Of a stretch of 28,008 bases of DNA, positions 1 through 27,492 are shown piece by piece (within the stretch, counting starts at the first letter, position 1; every line of letters starts with the position of its first letter). Location of the stretch: assembly GCA_031364625.1 (NCBI GenBank), contig JANLWR010000445.1:1-28008 (forward strand). Reading direction: 5' to 3'. The DNA comes from Deinococcales bacterium. GTDB taxonomy: Bacteria; Deinococcota; Deinococci; Deinococcales; JAAFIG01. The translations under genes and the position numbers were made by a program. The notes under the pieces are model-generated. The model did no database searches. It was not told the DNA's origin and was given only the letters and a program-made list of their open reading frames with translations.

Positions 1-495
1 GTTGAAAGCAACGCCATCAGCCTGCACCGTGAATCTGTGCGCCTTGACCTGATCGCCCAGGAAGTTTGCAGCCAACTCGAGCCTCGTTTTGAGCATAAAA
101 ACCTGAAATTGCAACTCGAGGTATGTGCCGTCAGCGTGCTGGCGGACAATGACCGAATGATTCAAGTTTGTCATAACTTGCTTTCCAACGCGTTTCGTCA
201 CACGCAGGAGGGCAGTGTGACCGTGCGGGTTTGGCAAGATCAAGCACAGGGATTCCTGAAGGTCACGGACACCGGCGAAGGCATCGCGGCGCACGACCTG
301 CCGCACATTTTCGAGCGTTTCTACCGCGCCGACAAAAGTCGCTCGAGAAACGACGATGACAGCGTTGGGGCGGGTGTTGGTTTGACTGTTAGCCAGCATT
401 TGGTCGAGGCGATGGGCGGCAAACTGAGTGTCGAAAGTCAAGTGGGTGTTGGCAGTTCGTTTCAAGTCACATTCAATAAGGATATTGTTTTTTAA
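1..495 (+). CDS. Sensor histidine kinase, C-terminal HATPase_c part (5' end outside window)
   Basis: Frame is open from base 1 (VESNAISLHRES...). N box 'QVCHNLLSNAFRHT', G1 'VTDTGEGI', F box 'IFERFYRAD', G2 'GAGVGLTV'. Stop overlaps the MFS gene convergently by 23 bp. Confidence 0.93.
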   Translation, partial: VESNAISLHRESVRLDLIAQEVCSQLEPRFEHKNLKLQLEVCAVSVLADNDRMIQVCHNLLSNAFRHTQEGSVTVRVWQDQAQGFLKVTDTGEGIAAHDLPHIFERFYRADKSRSRNDDDSVGAGVGLTVSQHLVEAMGGKLSVESQVGVGSSFQVTFNKDIVF

Positions 496-1702
496 GATAT
501 CTCGAGTATCCCATCACCAAGCCCGAAATAAAAGTCAGCACGGCAACCAAGCCTATTGCCCAAGAAAAACCGAGCCAATCGGCAATGATTCCTGCCAGCA
601 ACGCACCGAGGGCGTATCCAATGTCACGCCAGAAACGGTACACGCCCAAGGCTCGCGCTCGCCAAAAGGGTTCGCTCGAGTCACTGACCACCGCAATCAG
701 CGTTGGGTAGACCATTGCCGTACCCGCACCGAGCAGGACGGTGGCAATCAACCAGCCCTCGAGATTCTCCGTTGCAATCGTCAATCCAAGACCGAAGGCT
801 TGCACCAGCATTCCCCAAGCGATCAAGCTCGAGCGATTCATACGGTCTGACAGTGGTCCGGTGAGCACTTGCAAAACACTCCAGACCAGCGGGTAAACAA
901 ATTTGAGTACCCCAATTCCCTCAAGCGACAAGCCTTTTGAGGCAAAATACAACGGGAAAATCCCCCAGGACAAACCATCGTTGAGGTTGTTGACCAGACC
1001 AGCCTGACAAGCGGCGAACAGGCGCGGGTCGCGCCATGAGGTTTGCTTAAAGATTGTCCAGAAGTTGACAGCTTTTGCTGTGACCGCCCGATGCTCGAGT
1101 TGCACGTGGGCGCGGGTGTCTCGGAGCACAAAGATCGATAAAAACAAACCAAGAATTGCATAAACTACACCGGGCAGGAATGGGACCGGGCGTAAGCCGT
1201 AATGACTTGCCAGAAATCCGGTCAGCAGCGCGGTCATGCCAACCGCGAAGTACCCCGCGAATTCGTTCAGTCCAACCGCCAGACCGCGACCTTTTGGACC
1301 GACCAAATCGATTTTCATGATGACCGCCGCCGACCATGCCAGACCCTGATTGATACCGAGCAGCACGTTGGCAAAGACAATCCAGCCCCAACTGGGCGCG
1401 AACATCAGCAAAAACGGCACTGGCAGACCAAACAACCAGCCGAGTACCAACAATGGCTTGCGCCCAAAACGGTCTGCCAGCACGCCGCTGACCAGGTTCA
1501 CCAAGGCTTTGGTCAAACCGAAACTGATGATAAAACTGGTCACAACGACGTTCGAGGTCAAGCCGAATTCTTTGGTGGCAACCAGTGGCAGCACGGTACG
1601 CTCGAGTCCGACCATGCCGCCGACCATCGCGTTAATCAGCATCAAGAGGGCAAACTGGGCGGCGTTCTCACGCAAGCCAAGACGAACGGTTTGAATGGTC
1701 AT
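473..1702 (-). CDS. MFS transporter (409 aa)
   Basis: About 12 hydrophobic segments and MFS motif A 'GVLADRFGRK', repeated as 'GPLSDRMNR'. Translationally coupled to the upstream MBL gene. Confidence 0.93.
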   Translation of the reverse strand: MTIQTVRLGLRENAAQFALLMLINAMVGGMVGLERTVLPLVATKEFGLTSNVVVTSFIISFGLTKALVNLVSGVLADRFGRKPLLVLGWLFGLPVPFLLMFAPSWGWIVFANVLLGINQGLAWSAAVIMKIDLVGPKGRGLAVGLNEFAGYFAVGMTALLTGFLASHYGLRPVPFLPGVVYAILGLFLSIFVLRDTRAHVQLEHRAVTAKAVNFWTIFKQTSWRDPRLFAACQAGLVNNLNDGLSWGIFPLYFASKGLSLEGIGVLKFVYPLVWSVLQVLTGPLSDRMNRSSLIAWGMLVQAFGLGLTIATENLEGWLIATVLLGAGTAMVYPTLIAVVSDSSEPFWRARALGVYRFWRDIGYALGALLAGIIADWLGFSWAIGLVAVLTFISGLVMGYSRYLKKQYPY

Positions 1703-2430
1703 CAGCCTTGAAGGTTGAGGGCGCGAATCTGCTCGAAGCCTTCGGGACGGGGCGGGATATTTTTGAGCATCGCCCTCACAAATTCGGTTTCGTTTTCCAT
1801 GCCAAATGCAGGGTTAAAGCGGCGTTCAAAACCGATGGTGCTGCTGGGTTTACCAGACAATCCCCGTCCACAAACCGAGCCACTGAATGCGCCAGGCAGC
1901 ACCTCGAGATAATCGGGCAGGGTTTTCAGACGCTTTACGCTAGCAAACAAGTCTCGAGCGCCATCTTCGGCGGTGCTGGCAAGTTCGGTGCGTCCAAGGT
2001 CGCCGACCATCAAGGTATGTCCCGTCAGGATCATCCACGGTTGGCTGGCTCGAGTGCGGTCTGTCACCAGAACACAAAGGTGTTCTGGGGTATGACCTGG
2101 GGTGTGCCACAAGGTCAGAACGACGTTGCCCAACTCGAGGGTATCGCCGTCCGCGACAGCATGAAACGCGAATTTTGCCTGAACGCTTTCGTGCAACACA
2201 TATTGTGCGCCGGTTGCTGCGGCAAGTTCCCGAGCGCTCGAACGGTGGTCGGCGTGAACGTGCGTGTCAATCACGTATAAAATCTTCAAGCCGAGGCGGG
2301 CGGCATCCTCGAGATACCCGTTTATGGAACCCATCGGGTCAACCACCGCGCCACTCGATTTGCCGCCGCAACCGAGCAAATACGATGCGCCCACGGCGGG
2401 GACAGTGTGTAAATATTGGCGTAAGATCAT
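1702..2430 (-). CDS. MBL-fold metallo-hydrolase, persulfide dioxygenase (ETHE1/PDO)-like
   Basis: 'DTHVHADH', 'HTPGHTPEH', 'GDLGRTEL', 'SSTIGFERRFNP'. Operonic with a rhodanese-fused ArsR. Confidence 0.85.
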   Translation of the reverse strand: MILRQYLHTVPAVGASYLLGCGGKSSGAVVDPMGSINGYLEDAARLGLKILYVIDTHVHADHRSSARELAAATGAQYVLHESVQAKFAFHAVADGDTLELGNVVLTLWHTPGHTPEHLCVLVTDRTRASQPWMILTGHTLMVGDLGRTELASTAEDGARDLFASVKRLKTLPDYLEVLPGAFSGSVCGRGLSGKPSSTIGFERRFNPAFGMENETEFVRAMLKNIPPRPEGFEQIRALNLQG

Positions 2431-3098
2431 GCGCTCACCCCTTGTTGGACGGGATAACCCGCCGTCTGCCAGTCTGGTAATCCCAACTCGAGGCGCTGTG
2501 CCTTGAAGCCCTTGGCTCGCAACAGGGCGACGGCTTCGTCGGCAAAAACACAGTACGGTCCTCGACAGTACGCGATGATCTCGAGCTTCTTGCTGAGTTT
2601 TGGCAGCAGCGCCTCGAGTTCTGCGAGTGGCGCAGGAATTGCCCCTGGAACGTGTGCCGCCTCGAATTCTGAATGTGGTCGCACATCGAGCAGCACCGCT
2701 TTTCCCCGCTCGAGTTTGATGCGTAATTCCTCCAAGGTCACAGCTTGGTCTTGACGTTCGAGATTGCTGCTGACAAGGCGTTCAACTTCGCCAAGGCGTT
2801 GCTGGGCAAGGTCGCGCAGCGATTGCCAGAGTGGGAACGCGCCCTGGATCAAACGGTAATAAATGAATACTCCCTCGCGGCGCGACTCGAGCAACCCAGC
2901 CGTGTGCAGGACTTGAAGGTGTTGGCTGGCGTTGGCGGTTGAGAGGTCGGTTTCTCGAGCCAAGTTTTCGACGCTGCGTTCGCCTTGGGCGAGCAGTTCC
3001 AGCAACTCGAGGCGGTGGTTGTTGGACAGGGCTTTGCCCAAACGGGCAAATTGAGAGTAGAGCTGATTTTTGAAGGTACGTTTCTGGGCATGATTCAT
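2427..3098 (-). CDS. ArsR/SmtB-family regulator fused to a rhodanese domain
   Basis: N-terminal wHTH 'RLELLELLAQGERSVENLA...ASQHLQVL', C-terminal rhodanese 'LLDVRPHSEFEAAHVPGA...AYCRGPYC'. ATG 3098 preferred over TTG 3104, which lies inside the promoter/operator. Confidence 0.92.
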   Translation of the reverse strand: MNHAQKRTFKNQLYSQFARLGKALSNNHRLELLELLAQGERSVENLARETDLSTANASQHLQVLHTAGLLESRREGVFIYYRLIQGAFPLWQSLRDLAQQRLGEVERLVSSNLERQDQAVTLEELRIKLERGKAVLLDVRPHSEFEAAHVPGAIPAPLAELEALLPKLSKKLEIIAYCRGPYCVFADEAVALLRAKGFKAQRLELGLPDWQTAGYPVQQGVSA

Positions 3099-26585: not shown

Positions 26586-26702
26586 CAGCGACCATGCCCG
26601 CCAGCGATCCCGCCCGTGAGCGCCCCAAGCCCGTTAGGTGCTGCTTTAAGGGGCAAGACAGGTGCGTTTTATGGTCAAGAAGGGTGCGTTTTATGGTCAA
26701 GA
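26586..26702 (-). repeat. Modular repeat array R4 (A'-A'-B-C-D-E, 117 bp), opposite orientation, in the IS5 transposase
   Basis: Removing it restores TGG GCA GAT CAA GGA TTT GAG GGA = WADQGFEG. CA/TG is duplicated. Confidence 0.93.
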
Positions 26703-26913
26703 CAAGGATTTGAGGGATGGGAGTTTAGCGCGTGGATGAAAGGGAGTGTGAAATGGGATTTGGAATTAACGTCAGGATTATCAAAACCTGGTCAACTTGA
26801 TTTTCGTCCTGCGCCGTGGAGGTGGGTGGTGGAGCGTTCAATTAACTGGGATTTCTAAGTTTGAAGACGATGACTCGTGAAAAACCTGTTGCACTTGTTA
26901 GACTTCAGTCCGT

Positions 26914-27129
26914 ATGATTTACAAAACTTTTAGCAATCAGGGGTTCTTATTTTAGGAGACGCTTTTGGCAGCAAAGCTGTTGGCGTCTGGCGTGCCAAGT
27001 AATGAAGTGCAGCGCCGTATTCTCGAGGAGAACTTGTTCGATGTGCAGGCGCTCGAGAGCCGCAAAACCTTGGCGAAAGTGGTTTTGCAACGGTTGGAAG
27101 GTATTGAATCACTTTTTAAGTTTGGTTGA
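26914..27129 (+). pseudogene. brxA: BrxA (DUF1819)-like N-terminal fragment with an in-frame TAG
   Basis: 'GFLF*ETLLAAKLLASGVPSNEVQRRILEENLFDVQALESRKTLAKVVLQRLE' resembles the BREX BrxA N-terminus as recalled. Truncated. Confidence 0.55.
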
Positions 27130-27492
27130 CGACGTGTGAAACTCGAGCCGCCACCAGCCGAGCCACCGGAAGCCGGTACGGACTGCACGAAACAGAATCC
27201 AATCCGACCTCGTTGAAAAACGCGATGCTCGCTGGATCGCCACCGTGCTCACCACAGATCCCGACTTTCAAGTTTGGTTTGACACGACGTGCCGCCTCGA
27301 ATGCCATGCGAACCAAGGCTCCAACCCCAACGGTGTCTATCGTGGCGAACGGATCGAAATCGAGCACTTGACGCTCGAGGTATTCGGGAATGAATTTTCC
27401 TTGCGCATCGTCGCGTGAAAATCCGTAGGTCATTTGGGTCAGGTCGTTTGTGCCAAAGCTGAAGAGATCGGCAAGCTTGGCGATCTCAGCGG
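27116..27492 (-). pseudogene. ppdK: Pyruvate phosphate dikinase C-terminal fragment
   Basis: '[19 protein letters not shown]', '[10 protein letters not shown]', '[16 protein letters not shown]'. The upstream ~750 aa are absent. Confidence 0.88.

What the first reader, a model, noticed from the sequence alone, without database searches (positions are those of the whole stretch)
76..27379. CTCGAG is a HIP1-like highly iterated palindrome
About 160 copies by hand count, more than 20-fold above chance, reaching 7-9 per kb in host genes. It appears as LE (CTC GAG), xR(V/A/D) (e.g. ACT CGA GTC) and xS(S/R) (e.g. AAC TCG AGC), so it is not a codon or dipeptide bias. Established: cyanobacterial HIP1 (GCGATCGC) behaves this way and is tied to a methyltransferase. 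Inference: a methylation-coupled repair or recombination process creates CTCGAG sites in this lineage.
Basis: partly seen in the sequence, partly recalled or inferred. Interest (0 to 1): 0.72.

Follow-up and report, generated by a model that had tools for sequence, protein, structure and literature searches.

The report
Hyper-abundant CTCGAG palindrome, Deinococcales watermark
This uncultured relative of Deinococcus and Thermus carries the six-letter palindrome CTCGAG about once every 155 bases, in genes and spacers alike and strongly enough to change protein sequences; milder flank-restricted versions occur across most of the order, including culturable Meiothermus and Thermus, so the unexplained 'highly iterated palindrome' phenomenon of cyanobacteria may become testable in a second phylum.

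Summary
The window has exactly 160 CTCGAG sites against about 4.5 expected. The whole 4.96-Mb assembly has 31,978 (6.4/kb, 25x chance), making it the commonest hexamer.

The enrichment survives a codon-aware null (7.9x, all three phases) and is as dense in ORF-free DNA (6.9/kb). 75% of Leu-Glu pairs are written CTCGAG, and the LE dipeptide is 2.3x over-represented.

Sites are the best-conserved hexamer between congeners (83% retained vs a 45% median), including in non-coding DNA. All 19 species of the family share the trait.

New here: the order carries 'dialects'. These are GCTCGAGC (some Trueperaceae-like and f4 genomes), S-flanked octamers (Meiothermus) and CCTCGAGG only (Thermus, where all other TCGA is purged). 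Deinococcus avoids the word.

CTCGAG is experimentally 6mA-methylated in Meiothermus ruber. Three orphan adenine-methylase families track several dialect lineages, though imperfectly. None of them, nor any other conserved methylase, Vsr or XhoI-type nuclease, was found in the window's own family.

It therefore behaves like HIP1, but its mechanism here is unresolved. This scan has flagged the same phenomenon before in at least 14 other genomes of the clade; I found no paper describing it.

The parts
76..27379 (.). The 160 CTCGAG sites of the window (5.7/kb overall), in coding DNA of both strands and in spacers
   Evidence: positions, shuffles; per-gene counts and phases. Flank bases are weakly biased (G before and C after are preferred; C..G flanks occur only 3 times).
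1..9500 (-). Resident metal-homeostasis genes (MFS, MBL, ArsR-rhodanese, two P-type ATPases, CopZ-like) with the highest site density, 7.3/kb and up to 10.3/kb
   Evidence: Pfam. In CopA, many sites lie at the same codon in four genera, where outgroups encode other residues.
9858..14554 (-). Type III restriction-modification pair (res 9858-12494, mod 12722-14554). It is not the CTCGAG enzyme, and it carries 25 sites itself (4.9-6.5/kb)
   Evidence: ResIII plus RE_endonuc; N6_N4_Mtase. Similar Type III-size mod genes are patchy in the family, and the complete genome G011 has no PF01555 hit.
14769..14841 (-). tRNA gene without a site. tRNA genes genome-wide hold 3 sites in 4.7 kb, so structurally constrained RNA resists the word
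   Evidence: Rfam tRNA; aragorn count.
16332..17393 (.). Largest site-free gap in the window (1,061 bp)
   Evidence: Genome-wide there are 45 gaps over 1,280 bp (6 expected); the 27 longest (over 1,500 bp) are mostly low-GC stretches.
23001..27000 (.). Low-GC (0.44), site-poor stretch at 3.0/kb: toxin C-terminus, Tdi1-type immunity gene (GC 0.33, 1 site) and IS remnants. It looks recently acquired and only partly 'watermarked'
   Evidence: Genome-wide, density rises from 2.5/kb at GC below 0.40 to 7/kb. R-M loci with low GC also have 2.4-3.4/kb.

Best explanation
CTCGAG is a genuine highly iterated palindrome: a DNA-level watermark of a whole uncultured Deinococcales family. It is not a codon, dipeptide or repeat-element effect.

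Shown: the word is about 25-fold over-represented everywhere in the genome and equally dense in ORF-free DNA. It fills 75-87% of the positions where one synonymous choice allows it, and it has changed protein sequence. Its six bases are kept about 95% identical between species whose flanks are 79-89% identical. Milder, flank-restricted dialects of the same core exist in most of the order.

Inferred mechanism: a sequence-specific factor that reads CTCGAG biases the outcome of mismatch repair or recombination towards the intact word. That raises gains a few-fold and cuts losses about four-fold at every site independently. In population-genetic terms this acts like selection.

Whether methylation takes part here is open; my estimate is about 0.3.
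For: Reality and DNA-level nature:
- 160 sites in the window, 31,978 in the genome, commonest hexamer.
- 7.9x over synonymous shuffles, in all phases.
- 6.88/kb in 188 kb of strictly ORF-free DNA at GC 43%.
- LE is written CTCGAG in 74.7% of cases against 3.7% expected; Arg is CGA in 86% of permissive contexts against 12.7% elsewhere; Ser is TCG in 87% against 16.5%; LE has O/E 2.33 while EL has 1.01.

Per-site maintenance:
- most conserved of 2,019 hexamers between G000 and G004 (82.7% against a 45% median). Identity is 94-95.5% inside the site with sharp edges.
- non-coding sites are retained at 73% against about 33% expected, and retention is almost independent of neighbour distance.
- 38% of site positions are shared by all congeners, against under 16% for control words.
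- the same codon positions are occupied across four genera, where outgroups have other residues.

A heritable recognition agent with evolvable flank preference:
- the family shows the hexamer in all contexts with CCTCGAGG disfavoured; G027 and G021 show GCTCGAGC (12.5x and 7.4x codon-aware); Meiothermus and g24 show S-flanked sites (2.4-3.5x, and 4.9-9.6x in non-ORF DNA); Thermus shows CCTCGAGG only; Deinococcus purges the word.

Methylation in relatives:
- M. ruber CTCGAG 6mA.
- three orphan gamma-methylase families; two of them are complementary in Meiothermus, where 25 of 26 species have exactly one.

Acquired DNA is site-poor, as expected for a slow resident process.
Against: - No methylase orthologue common to the 19 family genomes was found in the C5, N4/N6-beta, N6-gamma (two models), D12 or TaqI-TRD classes, nor with four protein probes. 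The complete genome G011 and the 94%-complete G009 share no class-level orthologue.
- No Vsr was found in G000, and no XhoI-family nuclease in any of the 19 genomes.
- Within Meiothermus the enrichment does not depend on which methylase family is present. G021 is enriched with none of the three. Methylases may therefore be a consequence (protection of an abundant word) rather than the cause.
- On about 65 kb of six-species alignment there were more terminal losses (60) than gains (26). The gain excess over background was only about 3x and rests on 3 events.
- The one-step neighbours CTTGAG/CTCAAG are not depleted (O/E 1.05), unlike the neighbour words under Dcm/Vsr repair.
- Biased repair and direct selection on each site make the same predictions for every statistic I could compute.
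Confidence: 0.45

Rival explanations
1. Direct natural selection on each site. CTCGAG is the binding or recognition site of a genome-wide function (nucleoid organisation, chromosome folding, or marking DNA as 'self' for recombination or defence). Sites are kept because losing them is slightly deleterious, and no repair bias is involved. This is the reading Xu, Lawrence and Durand gave for HIP1.
For: - Sites are conserved far above background in coding and non-coding DNA, the same argument as in PMC5861425.
- Sites repel each other below about 50 bp (0.18x at 6-8 bp, rising to 1 at about 50 bp), as expected if a bound factor has a footprint or if a second nearby site adds nothing.
- Acquired DNA is site-poor, so the word could discriminate self from foreign DNA.
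- In Thermus, CCTCGAGG survives a near-total purge of TCGA, which implies a benefit or protection specific to that word.
- No conserved methylase is needed.
Against: - About 32,000 independent sites would each need a selection coefficient above drift.
- Retention does not rise for isolated sites, so there is no sign of a per-region quota.
- No periodicity appears up to 420 bp.
- No candidate binding protein was identified.
- Occupancy of 75-87% at synonymous-permissive positions implies a per-site bias (odds about 77 for LE) far above typical codon-usage selection.
Confidence: 0.3
2. DNA-uptake or recombination drive. The word works like the uptake sequences of Neisseria and Pasteurellaceae: DNA bearing it is taken up or recombined preferentially in these naturally competent lineages, so recombination keeps restoring and spreading sites.
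For: - The properties resemble uptake sequences: present in all frames, proteome-shaping, conserved across related species with dialects, and poor in foreign DNA.
- Recent HIP1 work links that motif to transformation (titles and abstracts listed: bioRxiv 10.1101/2024.09.10.611283 and PMC13756078).
- From my own knowledge, Thermus and Deinococcus are naturally competent.
Against: - A density of 6.4/kb is several times above any known uptake sequence, and a 6-mer gives little specificity.
- From my own knowledge, T. thermophilus is reported to take up DNA from all sources without sequence preference.
- Deinococcus is also competent, yet it avoids the word.
- Nothing here tests uptake.
Confidence: 0.1
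3. Relic of a high-GC ancestor. CTC and GAG were the favoured Leu and Glu codons, as in Thermus today, so CTCGAG was common. The family then drifted to lower GC and the old sites are simply decaying slowly.
For: - In Thermus the CTCGAG count is about what codon usage predicts (0.7x).
- In the window's genus, terminal losses outnumber gains.
- Phase 0 (Leu-Glu) holds 61% of coding sites.
Against: - ORF-free DNA at 43% GC has 6.9 sites/kb, 30-36x chance.
- Phases 1 and 2 are 12x over the codon-aware null.
- Genomes at 44-49% GC have the same density.
- LE has O/E 2.3, and outgroups have other residues at shared sites, so sites were created rather than inherited.
- All six bases, including third codon positions, are about 95% conserved next to flanks at 79-89%.
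Confidence: 0.03
4. Very-short-patch repair linked to 5-methylcytosine, as with E. coli Dcm/Vsr. A C5 methylase marks CTCGAG, and a Vsr-type nuclease converts T:G mismatches in near-sites into full sites.
For: - The commonest one-step loss is the CpG C-to-T product CTTGAG/CTCAAG (13 of 33).
- The genome has at least five C5 methylase genes.
- CTCGAG is an m5C target in Halorubrum (PMC8112702).
Against: - No Vsr was found in G000.
- The C5 methylases pair with NgoPII-, NgoBV- and Eco29kI-type endonucleases.
- G008 has no C5 methylase, G009 and G011 have one each, and the enriched outgroups G027, G030 and G025 have none.
- CTTGAG/CTCAAG are not depleted (O/E 1.05).
- The mark shown in M. ruber is 6mA, not 5mC.
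Confidence: 0.03
5. Artefact: adapter, vector or linker sequence, a mis-assembly, or a dispersed repeat element that happens to contain an XhoI site.
For: CTCGAG is a common cloning site, and the genome is a fragmented metagenome bin (983 contigs, 89% complete).
Against: - Flanks are nearly random beyond one base, so there is no repeat unit.
- Sites sit in frame inside conserved genes at orthologous codons in independent assemblies of 19 species, including a single-contig genome.
- Spacing is near-geometric (CV 0.99).
Confidence: 0.01

Closest known systems
HIP1 (GCGATCGC) and the alternate HIPs (GGCGCC, GCCGGC, GCSGC) of cyanobacteria (Elhai 2015, PMC4390886; Xu, Lawrence & Durand 2018, PMC5861425)
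   Same: A short GC-rich palindrome 15-300x over-represented across a lineage. It occurs in all reading frames and between genes, is conserved between genomes beyond background, and has lineage-specific variants of one core. The word nests smaller methylase sites (TCGA inside CTCGAG inside S-CTCGAG-S, compare GATC inside CGATCG inside HIP1). A methylase for the word is documented in at least one carrier.
   Different: - It is in another phylum (Deinococcota).
- It is a hexamer at 6.4/kb, about six times denser than HIP1's roughly 1/kb.
- It shifts a dipeptide frequency proteome-wide (LE 2.3x).
- Its core is AT-containing, and the mark in the relative is 6mA rather than the 5mC postulated for HIP1.
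- No conserved methylase was found in the family with the strongest enrichment.
- One-off variants show only a mild outer-position bias.
- Kilobase-scale periodicity could not be tested on a fragmented assembly.
XhoI / PaeR7I (CTCGAG), PspXI (VCTCGAGB), AbsI (CCTCGAGG) and TaqI (TCGA) restriction-modification specificities (own knowledge of REBASE); M.Mru1279II of Meiothermus ruber
   Same: They have the same word and the same kind of flank discrimination as the dialects seen here (hexamer; not-C flank in the family; C-only in Thermus; G-only in G027). 6mA at the A of CTCGAG is shown in M. ruber. A TaqI R-M pair is present in Thermus G022.
   Different: Restriction systems normally cause avoidance of their site, as seen here for GGCC, GAGCTC, CCGCGG and AGTACT, and for CTCGAG in Deinococcus. 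They do not cause a 25-fold excess. No XhoI-family endonuclease (PF04555) was found in any of 19 family genomes or 5 outgroups, although that model rang in no control genome, so its sensitivity here is unproven.
DNA uptake sequences (Neisseria DUS, Pasteurellaceae USS)
   Same: A genome-wide short word maintained by a non-coding force. It has family-level dialects, affects peptide composition and is scarce in foreign DNA.
   Different: Uptake sequences are 9-12 nt, non-palindromic and about 1/kb, and they have a demonstrated uptake bias. Nothing of that kind is known or tested for this word.
Dcm/Vsr very-short-patch repair bias in E. coli (CCWGG excess, CTWGG/CCWAG deficit)
   Same: It is a precedent for a repair enzyme that raises the frequency of a methylase target word.
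   Different: The effect in E. coli is small. Here the enrichment is 25x, neighbour words are not depleted, and no Vsr or conserved C5 methylase was found.

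Membership tests
Highly iterated palindromes (HIP1 and alternate HIPs) | Short palindrome over-represented by an order of magnitude or more genome-wide | tested here: met
   31,978 sites, 25.5x zero-order, commonest hexamer; 36x over dinucleotide shuffles in the window.
Highly iterated palindromes (HIP1 and alternate HIPs) | Not explained by codon or amino-acid usage; present in all frames and in non-coding DNA | tested here: met
   7.9x over synonymous shuffles; phases 6.4x / 12.6x / 12.2x; 6.88/kb in strictly ORF-free DNA.
Highly iterated palindromes (HIP1 and alternate HIPs) | Sites conserved between related genomes more than control words (Xu et al. 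2018 criterion) | tested here: met
   Rank 1 of 2,019 hexamers, 82.7% against a 45% median. Non-coding sites 73% against about 33%. Shared by all congeners at 38% of positions.
Highly iterated palindromes (HIP1 and alternate HIPs) | Trait of a whole lineage, with variant words in related lineages | tested here: met
   All 19 species and 5 genera of the family. Dialects occur in four other families of the order.
Highly iterated palindromes (HIP1 and alternate HIPs) | A methyltransferase specific for the word or its core encoded in the same genome (Elhai 2015) | tested here: not met
   No family-wide methylase orthologue in six methylase-related Pfam classes or with four protein probes. The feature is met in relatives (M. 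ruber 6mA). Specificity cannot be read from sequence, and MAGs are incomplete, so absence is not proven.
Highly iterated palindromes (HIP1 and alternate HIPs) | 10-90 kb periodicity along the chromosome (Xu et al. 2018) | not testable with these tools
   The assembly has 983 contigs. Only short-range spacing was tested: no periodicity to 420 bp and repulsion below 50 bp.
Restriction-modification target under avoidance | Site depleted in a genome that encodes, or has met, the cognate endonuclease | tested here: not met
   The site is enriched 25x. By contrast GGCC (O/E 0.02), GAGCTC, CCGCGG and AGTACT are depleted and their endonuclease genes are present.
Dcm/Vsr-type very-short-patch repair bias | C5 methylase plus Vsr nuclease, with deficit of the deamination-product neighbour word | tested here: not met
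   No PF03852 in G000; C5 methylases are patchy; CTTGAG/CTCAAG O/E is 1.05.
DNA uptake sequences | Preferential uptake or transformation by DNA carrying the word | not testable with these tools
   Needs transformation assays. Density and length differ from known uptake sequences.
Dispersed repeat element (REP/MITE) | Conserved sequence extending beyond the core word | tested here: not met
   Base frequencies are near background beyond position -1/+1.

The most novel reading that the evidence does not exclude
The order Deinococcales (apart from Deinococcaceae) carries an old, vertically inherited system that reads the core CTCGAG with a flank preference that drifts between lineages: C in Thermus, G in some Trueperaceae-like and f4 genomes, C or G in Meiothermus, and anything but C in the window's family. 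In the window's family this system writes and keeps a 6-bp watermark on 4% of the genome without any recognisable DNA methyltransferase. That would imply a new kind of sequence-specific genome-maintenance factor, either a reader coupled to repair or recombination or an abundant site-specific chromatin protein. It would also suggest that methylases in the relatives are secondary protectors of an already abundant word.
Probability: 0.25. Interest if true: 0.9.

Novelty: new variant of a known kind. Interest (0 to 1): 0.8.

Why it matters
Highly iterated palindromes have been an open problem for thirty years and were known only from cyanobacteria. Their function and origin (selection or biased repair) are still debated.

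A second, independent and much denser case in another phylum shows the phenomenon is general. It comes with a natural series of strengths and 'dialects': strong in the uncultured family, moderate in Meiothermus, restricted to one octamer in Thermus, and reversed in Deinococcus.

That series includes cultured, transformable organisms. One has a known CTCGAG methylome (M. ruber). Another, T. thermophilus, is from my own knowledge a genetic model. Knock-outs of the orphan methylases, heteroduplex-repair assays, mutation-accumulation lines and pull-downs with the word can now address what creates and keeps such words.

There are practical consequences too. The word distorts codon and dipeptide statistics (gene finders, codon-adaptation indices, HGT detection). 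It gives a compositional tag for binning these genomes and for spotting recently acquired DNA. It also makes XhoI-type enzymes cut this DNA to about 150-bp fragments.

Tried and rejected
1. Maximal-order Markov O/E for CTCGAG is 1.22. I rejected it as a test because the sub-words are made of the word itself.
2. C5 methylases as the partner: they pair with NgoPII, NgoBV and Eco29kI endonucleases, and they are missing from G008 and from the enriched outgroups.
3. The D12 methylase on C573 pairs with a SacI-like endonuclease and is found in 7 of 18 other family genomes. The D12 hits in five genera are only 19-27% identical, so they are not orthologues.
4. The beta-class methylase on C548 pairs with a ScaI endonuclease. 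G011 has no PF01555 hit at all.
5. Gamma-class hits are type I HsdM, a DrdV-like type IIL enzyme (PDB 7lo5), large type IIG-like fusions with TaqI-type recognition domains, other >1,000-aa proteins I did not annotate, a PstI-type pair, or g5-specific M+R pairs. The TaqI_C domain occurs in only 5 of 18.
6. The 850-aa C890 protein is an HsdM-type fusion without family orthologues.
7. The XhoI endonuclease family gave no hit in 19 family genomes or in 5 outgroups, including the CTCGAG-avoiding Deinococcus G028. The model rang in no control genome, so this negative is weak.
8. G028's adjacent methylase pair lies in a prophage (terminase, ParB-methylase), so it is uninformative.
9. The orphan methylases of G030 and G027 have no orthologue in G000 or anywhere in the family.
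10. I tested whether presence of the G030-type methylase predicts enrichment within genera. It does not.
11. Terminal-branch parsimony with a 'unanimous others' filter biased the baseline towards slow sites and missed gains. I replaced it with a pattern spectrum, but the sample (205 positions) is small.
12. Literature: no paper in the held library reports CTCGAG, CCTCGAGG or GCTCGAGC as an iterated palindrome in Deinococcota. PMC8112702 reports CTCGAG 5mC only in Halorubrum.
13. A scan of viral contigs for CTCGAG-dense phages was considered and dropped. Chance matches would swamp a three-site pattern, and host assignment would be circular.

Full report
**Observation.** The window holds exactly 160 CTCGAG sites, from 76 to 27379. 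Dinucleotide-preserving shuffles give 4.46 on average and never more than 12. The window lies on contig C634 of a 4.96-Mb, 983-contig assembly with GC 50.9%. That assembly has 31,978 sites, or 6.4 per kb, which is 25.5 times the zero-order expectation. CTCGAG is the most abundant of all hexamers. Every contig of 3 kb or more has at least 2.3 sites per kb, with a median of 6.4. Beyond one flanking base the context is near random, so no longer repeat unit hides behind the word.

**The refutation tests fail.** Synonymous codons were shuffled within each of 3,470 long ORFs. This keeps every protein and even the motif-inflated codon usage. The shuffles give about 2,890 sites against 22,836 observed, a 7.9-fold excess. 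By phase the ratios are 6.4x (CTC GAG), 12.6x (xCT CGA Gxx) and 12.2x (xxC TCG AGx).
- DNA covered by no open frame of 80 codons in any of six frames (188 kb, GC 43%) holds 6.88 sites per kb, as dense as genes.
- 74.7% of all Leu-Glu pairs are written CTCGAG, although CTC is 12.6% of other Leu codons and GAG 29% of other Glu codons.
- Arg is CGA in 86% of permissive contexts against 12.7% elsewhere. Ser is TCG in 87% against 16.5%.
- The LE dipeptide is 2.33 times over-represented while EL is at 1.01.

The force acts on DNA and is strong enough to have rewritten proteins. A maximal-order Markov model gives O/E 1.22 only because its sub-words consist mostly of the word itself.

**Anatomy.** Spacing is close to geometric (CV 0.99) with no periodicity up to 420 bp. 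Sites do repel each other below about 50 bp, at 0.18 of the mean density at 6-8 bp. There are 45 gaps above 1,280 bp against 6 expected, and the 27 longest (over 1,500 bp) are mostly low-GC stretches. Density rises from 2.5 per kb at GC below 0.40 to 7 per kb. In the window, the toxin tail, immunity gene and IS stretch at 23-27 kb has 3.0 per kb. tRNA genes hold almost none.

The genome otherwise avoids palindromes to an extreme degree: GGCC has O/E 0.02, GGGCCC has 5 copies, GAGCTC 11 and CCGCGG 14. The matching endonuclease genes are present next to methylases: NgoPII, SacI-like, Eco29kI, ScaI and NgoBV types. CTCGAG is the single hyper-abundant exception; only a few AT-rich palindromes exceed even 2x.

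**Conservation.** I aligned 256 kb of congener G004 to the genome at 84.9% identity. CTCGAG is the most conserved of 2,019 hexamers, with 82.7% of sites retained against a median of 45% and a 95th percentile of 58%. The six bases are 94-95.5% identical while the flanks are 79-89%, with sharp edges. Sites in ORF-free DNA are retained at 73%, where 83% background identity predicts about 33%. Retention hardly depends on the distance to the next site.

Six congeners form a near-star tree. Of 205 site positions, 78 are present in all species with data, 60 are missing in one, and 26 are singletons. For 200 common control words the counts are 861, 1,100 and 3,446. The sites are therefore old and turn over slowly. 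Differences are ordinary transitions at all six positions. The commonest one-step loss is the CpG C-to-T product, at 13 of 33. One-off ancestral words became sites 3 times out of 67, against 0.9 expected, which is too few events to claim direction. In a CopA codon alignment many sites occupy the same codon in four genera, while outgroups encode other residues there, for example LE against MS, VN or AD, and SS against AD or AE.

**Lineage.** The closest named record is an 'uncultured Deinococcales bacterium', and Meiothermus and Deinococcus follow. All 19 species-level genomes of the family (five genera, GC 44-63%) have 4-7 sites per kb. In all of them CTCGAG is the top hexamer, the synonymous-shuffle ratio is 3.9-9.9, and LE has O/E 2.0-2.6.

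**New result: the order carries dialects of the same core.** From 20- to 100-kb samples of 35 further genomes:
- G027 (f2) has almost only GCTCGAGC: 59 of 64 sites, 12.5x over the codon-aware null.
- G021 (f4) prefers the same octamer (7.4x).
- g58, whose member G356 has a 3,260,398-bp chromosome (Truepera radiovictrix size, from my own knowledge), also prefers it (4.8x).
- Eight g13 genomes and two g24 genomes have sites flanked by C or G and almost never by A or T. They are 2.4-3.5x over the null in genes and 4.9-9.6x over chance outside ORFs.
- g13 is Meiothermus. G186 is a single contig of 3,097,457 bp, exactly the M. ruber DSM 1279 size given in PMC4671558.
- Seven of seven g9 genomes carry CCTCGAGG almost exclusively: flank C 87-97%, GCTCGAGC 1 observed against 25 expected. 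TCGA outside CTCGAG is purged to O/E 0.00-0.13 in five of them.
- I read g9 as Thermus. It has 32 species of about 2 Mb and a TaqI pair in G022. G234's chromosome is 1,849,742 bp, which is T. thermophilus HB8 size from my own memory.
- In Thermus the hexamer count is no more than codon usage predicts (0.7x). The octamer is only 1.8x in genes and about 2.8x outside ORFs. What is special there is exemption and flank restriction, not strong enrichment.
- Deinococcus genomes avoid the word (O/E 0.1-0.8) while other TCGA contexts are normal.
- The window's family uses the bare hexamer. G flanks are preferred, and CCTCGAGG is specifically disfavoured (353 copies against about 1,150 expected from independent flank frequencies).
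- GCTCGAGC alone is at 0.72 per kb in the window's genome, the density of the octamer dialects elsewhere.

**Methylation.** The Nanomotif preprint's supplement lists M.Mru1279II of M. ruber DSM 1279 as a REBASE gold-standard CTCGAG 6mA enzyme. It reports 14,085 methylated and 1,054 unmethylated motif positions. That implies about 7,570 sites, or 2.4 per kb.

I found three orphan gamma-class adenine methylase families in the order.
- (a) A TaqI-like enzyme is present in 32 of 32 g9 genomes, in g26 and in G025, where it sits between release-factor and aminotransferase genes. It has an R.TaqI partner in G022 only, of the three loci examined.
- (b) A roughly 580-aa Eco57I plus TaqI_C enzyme is found in 6 of 26 g13 genomes, including M. 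ruber, where it is the only stand-alone gamma methylase. It is therefore probably M.Mru1279II, which is an inference. It also occurs in g24, g40 and scattered f2 and f4 genomes.
- (c) A roughly 560-aa enzyme lies next to dnaG in G027. It is found in 19 of 26 g13 genomes and in 55 of 128 f2 genomes.

Families (b) and (c) are complementary in Meiothermus, where 25 of 26 species have exactly one. That suggests equivalent roles. Deinococcus essentially lacks all three.

**Limits of the methylation link.** Enrichment in Meiothermus is the same with (b) or (c). G021 is enriched with none of the three. The window's family, the most extreme case, has none of them. It also has no other methylase orthologue common to its genomes in the C5, beta, gamma, D12 or TaqI-domain classes, and no XhoI-family nuclease. 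No Vsr was found in the window's own genome.

Methylases could be the cause, through an Elhai-type ratchet or a reader of hemimethylated sites. They could equally be a consequence, as protection of an abundant word against XhoI-type enzymes.

**Verdict.** Five of six HIP features that I could define were tested. Four were met, the cognate methylase was not found in this family, and long-range periodicity could not be tested.

The most likely mechanism is a per-site, sequence-specific bias in repair or recombination exerted by an R-M-derived reader of CTCGAG. It cannot be separated from direct selection on each site with the data at hand. I put it at 0.45 against 0.30.

This scan has flagged the phenomenon before in at least 14 other genomes of the clade. 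I found no paper describing it. Three points that the summaries of those earlier reports do not mention make it experimentally approachable:
- the order-wide dialect series, reaching culturable Meiothermus and Thermus;
- the complementary orphan methylases;
- the absence of any recognisable writer in the strongest case.

Noticed in passing
G000 contigs C13, C199, C974, C573, C548 (loci L031, L032, L034, L129, L123): Each strongly avoided palindrome has its own restriction system in the genome. These are C5 methylase plus NgoPII-type endonuclease (GGCC, O/E 0.02), plus Eco29kI-type (CCGCGG, 14 copies), plus NgoBV-type; D12 methylase plus SacI-like endonuclease (GAGCTC, 11 copies); and N4/N6 methylase plus ScaI-type (AGTACT, 38 copies). 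The R-M loci themselves are low-GC and CTCGAG-poor (2.4-3.4/kb), so they look recently acquired.
   Followed up: partly
Thermus-like genomes G022, G026, G213, G234, G235, G208, G211 (loci L218-L219, L246-L253, L298-L307): TCGA is almost eliminated (O/E 0.00-0.13 outside CTCGAG in five of seven), except inside the octamer CCTCGAGG, which holds about 74-94% of all CTCGAG sites (85% pooled). GCTCGAGC is absent (1 observed against 25 expected under a codon-aware null). G234's chromosome length equals that of T. thermophilus HB8 (own memory), a genetic model. Why one octamer escapes a TaqI-type purge is unexplained.
   Followed up: partly
g13 (Meiothermus) genomes; e.g. G186:C1:2437484-2439142 and G193:C2:494697-496310: Two unrelated orphan gamma-class adenine methylases (about 580 aa with a TaqI-type domain; about 560 aa with an M_Eco57I_C domain) are mutually exclusive. 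6 and 19 of 26 species carry one or the other, and none of those 25 carries both. This looks like functional replacement of one writer by another.
   Followed up: partly
window 6515-9049 (CopA), codon-alignment position 1308: Most family members have a two-codon insertion that is exactly CTCGAG (Leu-Glu), where all outgroups and three family genomes have a gap. It is a possible case of the word being inserted as a unit, or it may be an alignment effect.
   Followed up: no
window 1-9500; G004:C61:25200-31246 and G004:C35:194429-197317: The copper/heavy-metal ATPase block of the window is present twice in congener G004 (81-84% identity to the window) and is split over several contigs in other congeners. 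It behaves like a mobile or duplicated resistance island, yet it carries full site density.
   Followed up: no
G000:C56:157-2135 (L039:340-1979): A truncated protein matches the solved 1,029-aa adenine methyltransferase chain 7lo5_A over 533 residues (E 4e-120). From memory 7lo5 is the type IIL enzyme DrdV of Deinococcus wulumuqiensis. It is one more defence enzyme in an R-M-rich genome.
   Followed up: no
G000 genome-wide and family samples: Within the family the symmetric octamer CCTCGAGG is about 3-fold rarer than its flank frequencies predict (353 copies). The other NTCGAN palindromes (TTCGAA, GTCGAC, ATCGAT) are near zero in several genera. The family disfavours exactly the octamer that Thermus keeps.
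   Followed up: partly
Supplement of bioRxiv 10.1101/2024.04.29.591623: Rubrobacter radiotolerans (Actinomycetota) also methylates CTCGAG (6mA, 1,043 of 1,086 positions), but with few sites. Methylation of the word alone does not produce hyper-abundance.
   Followed up: no
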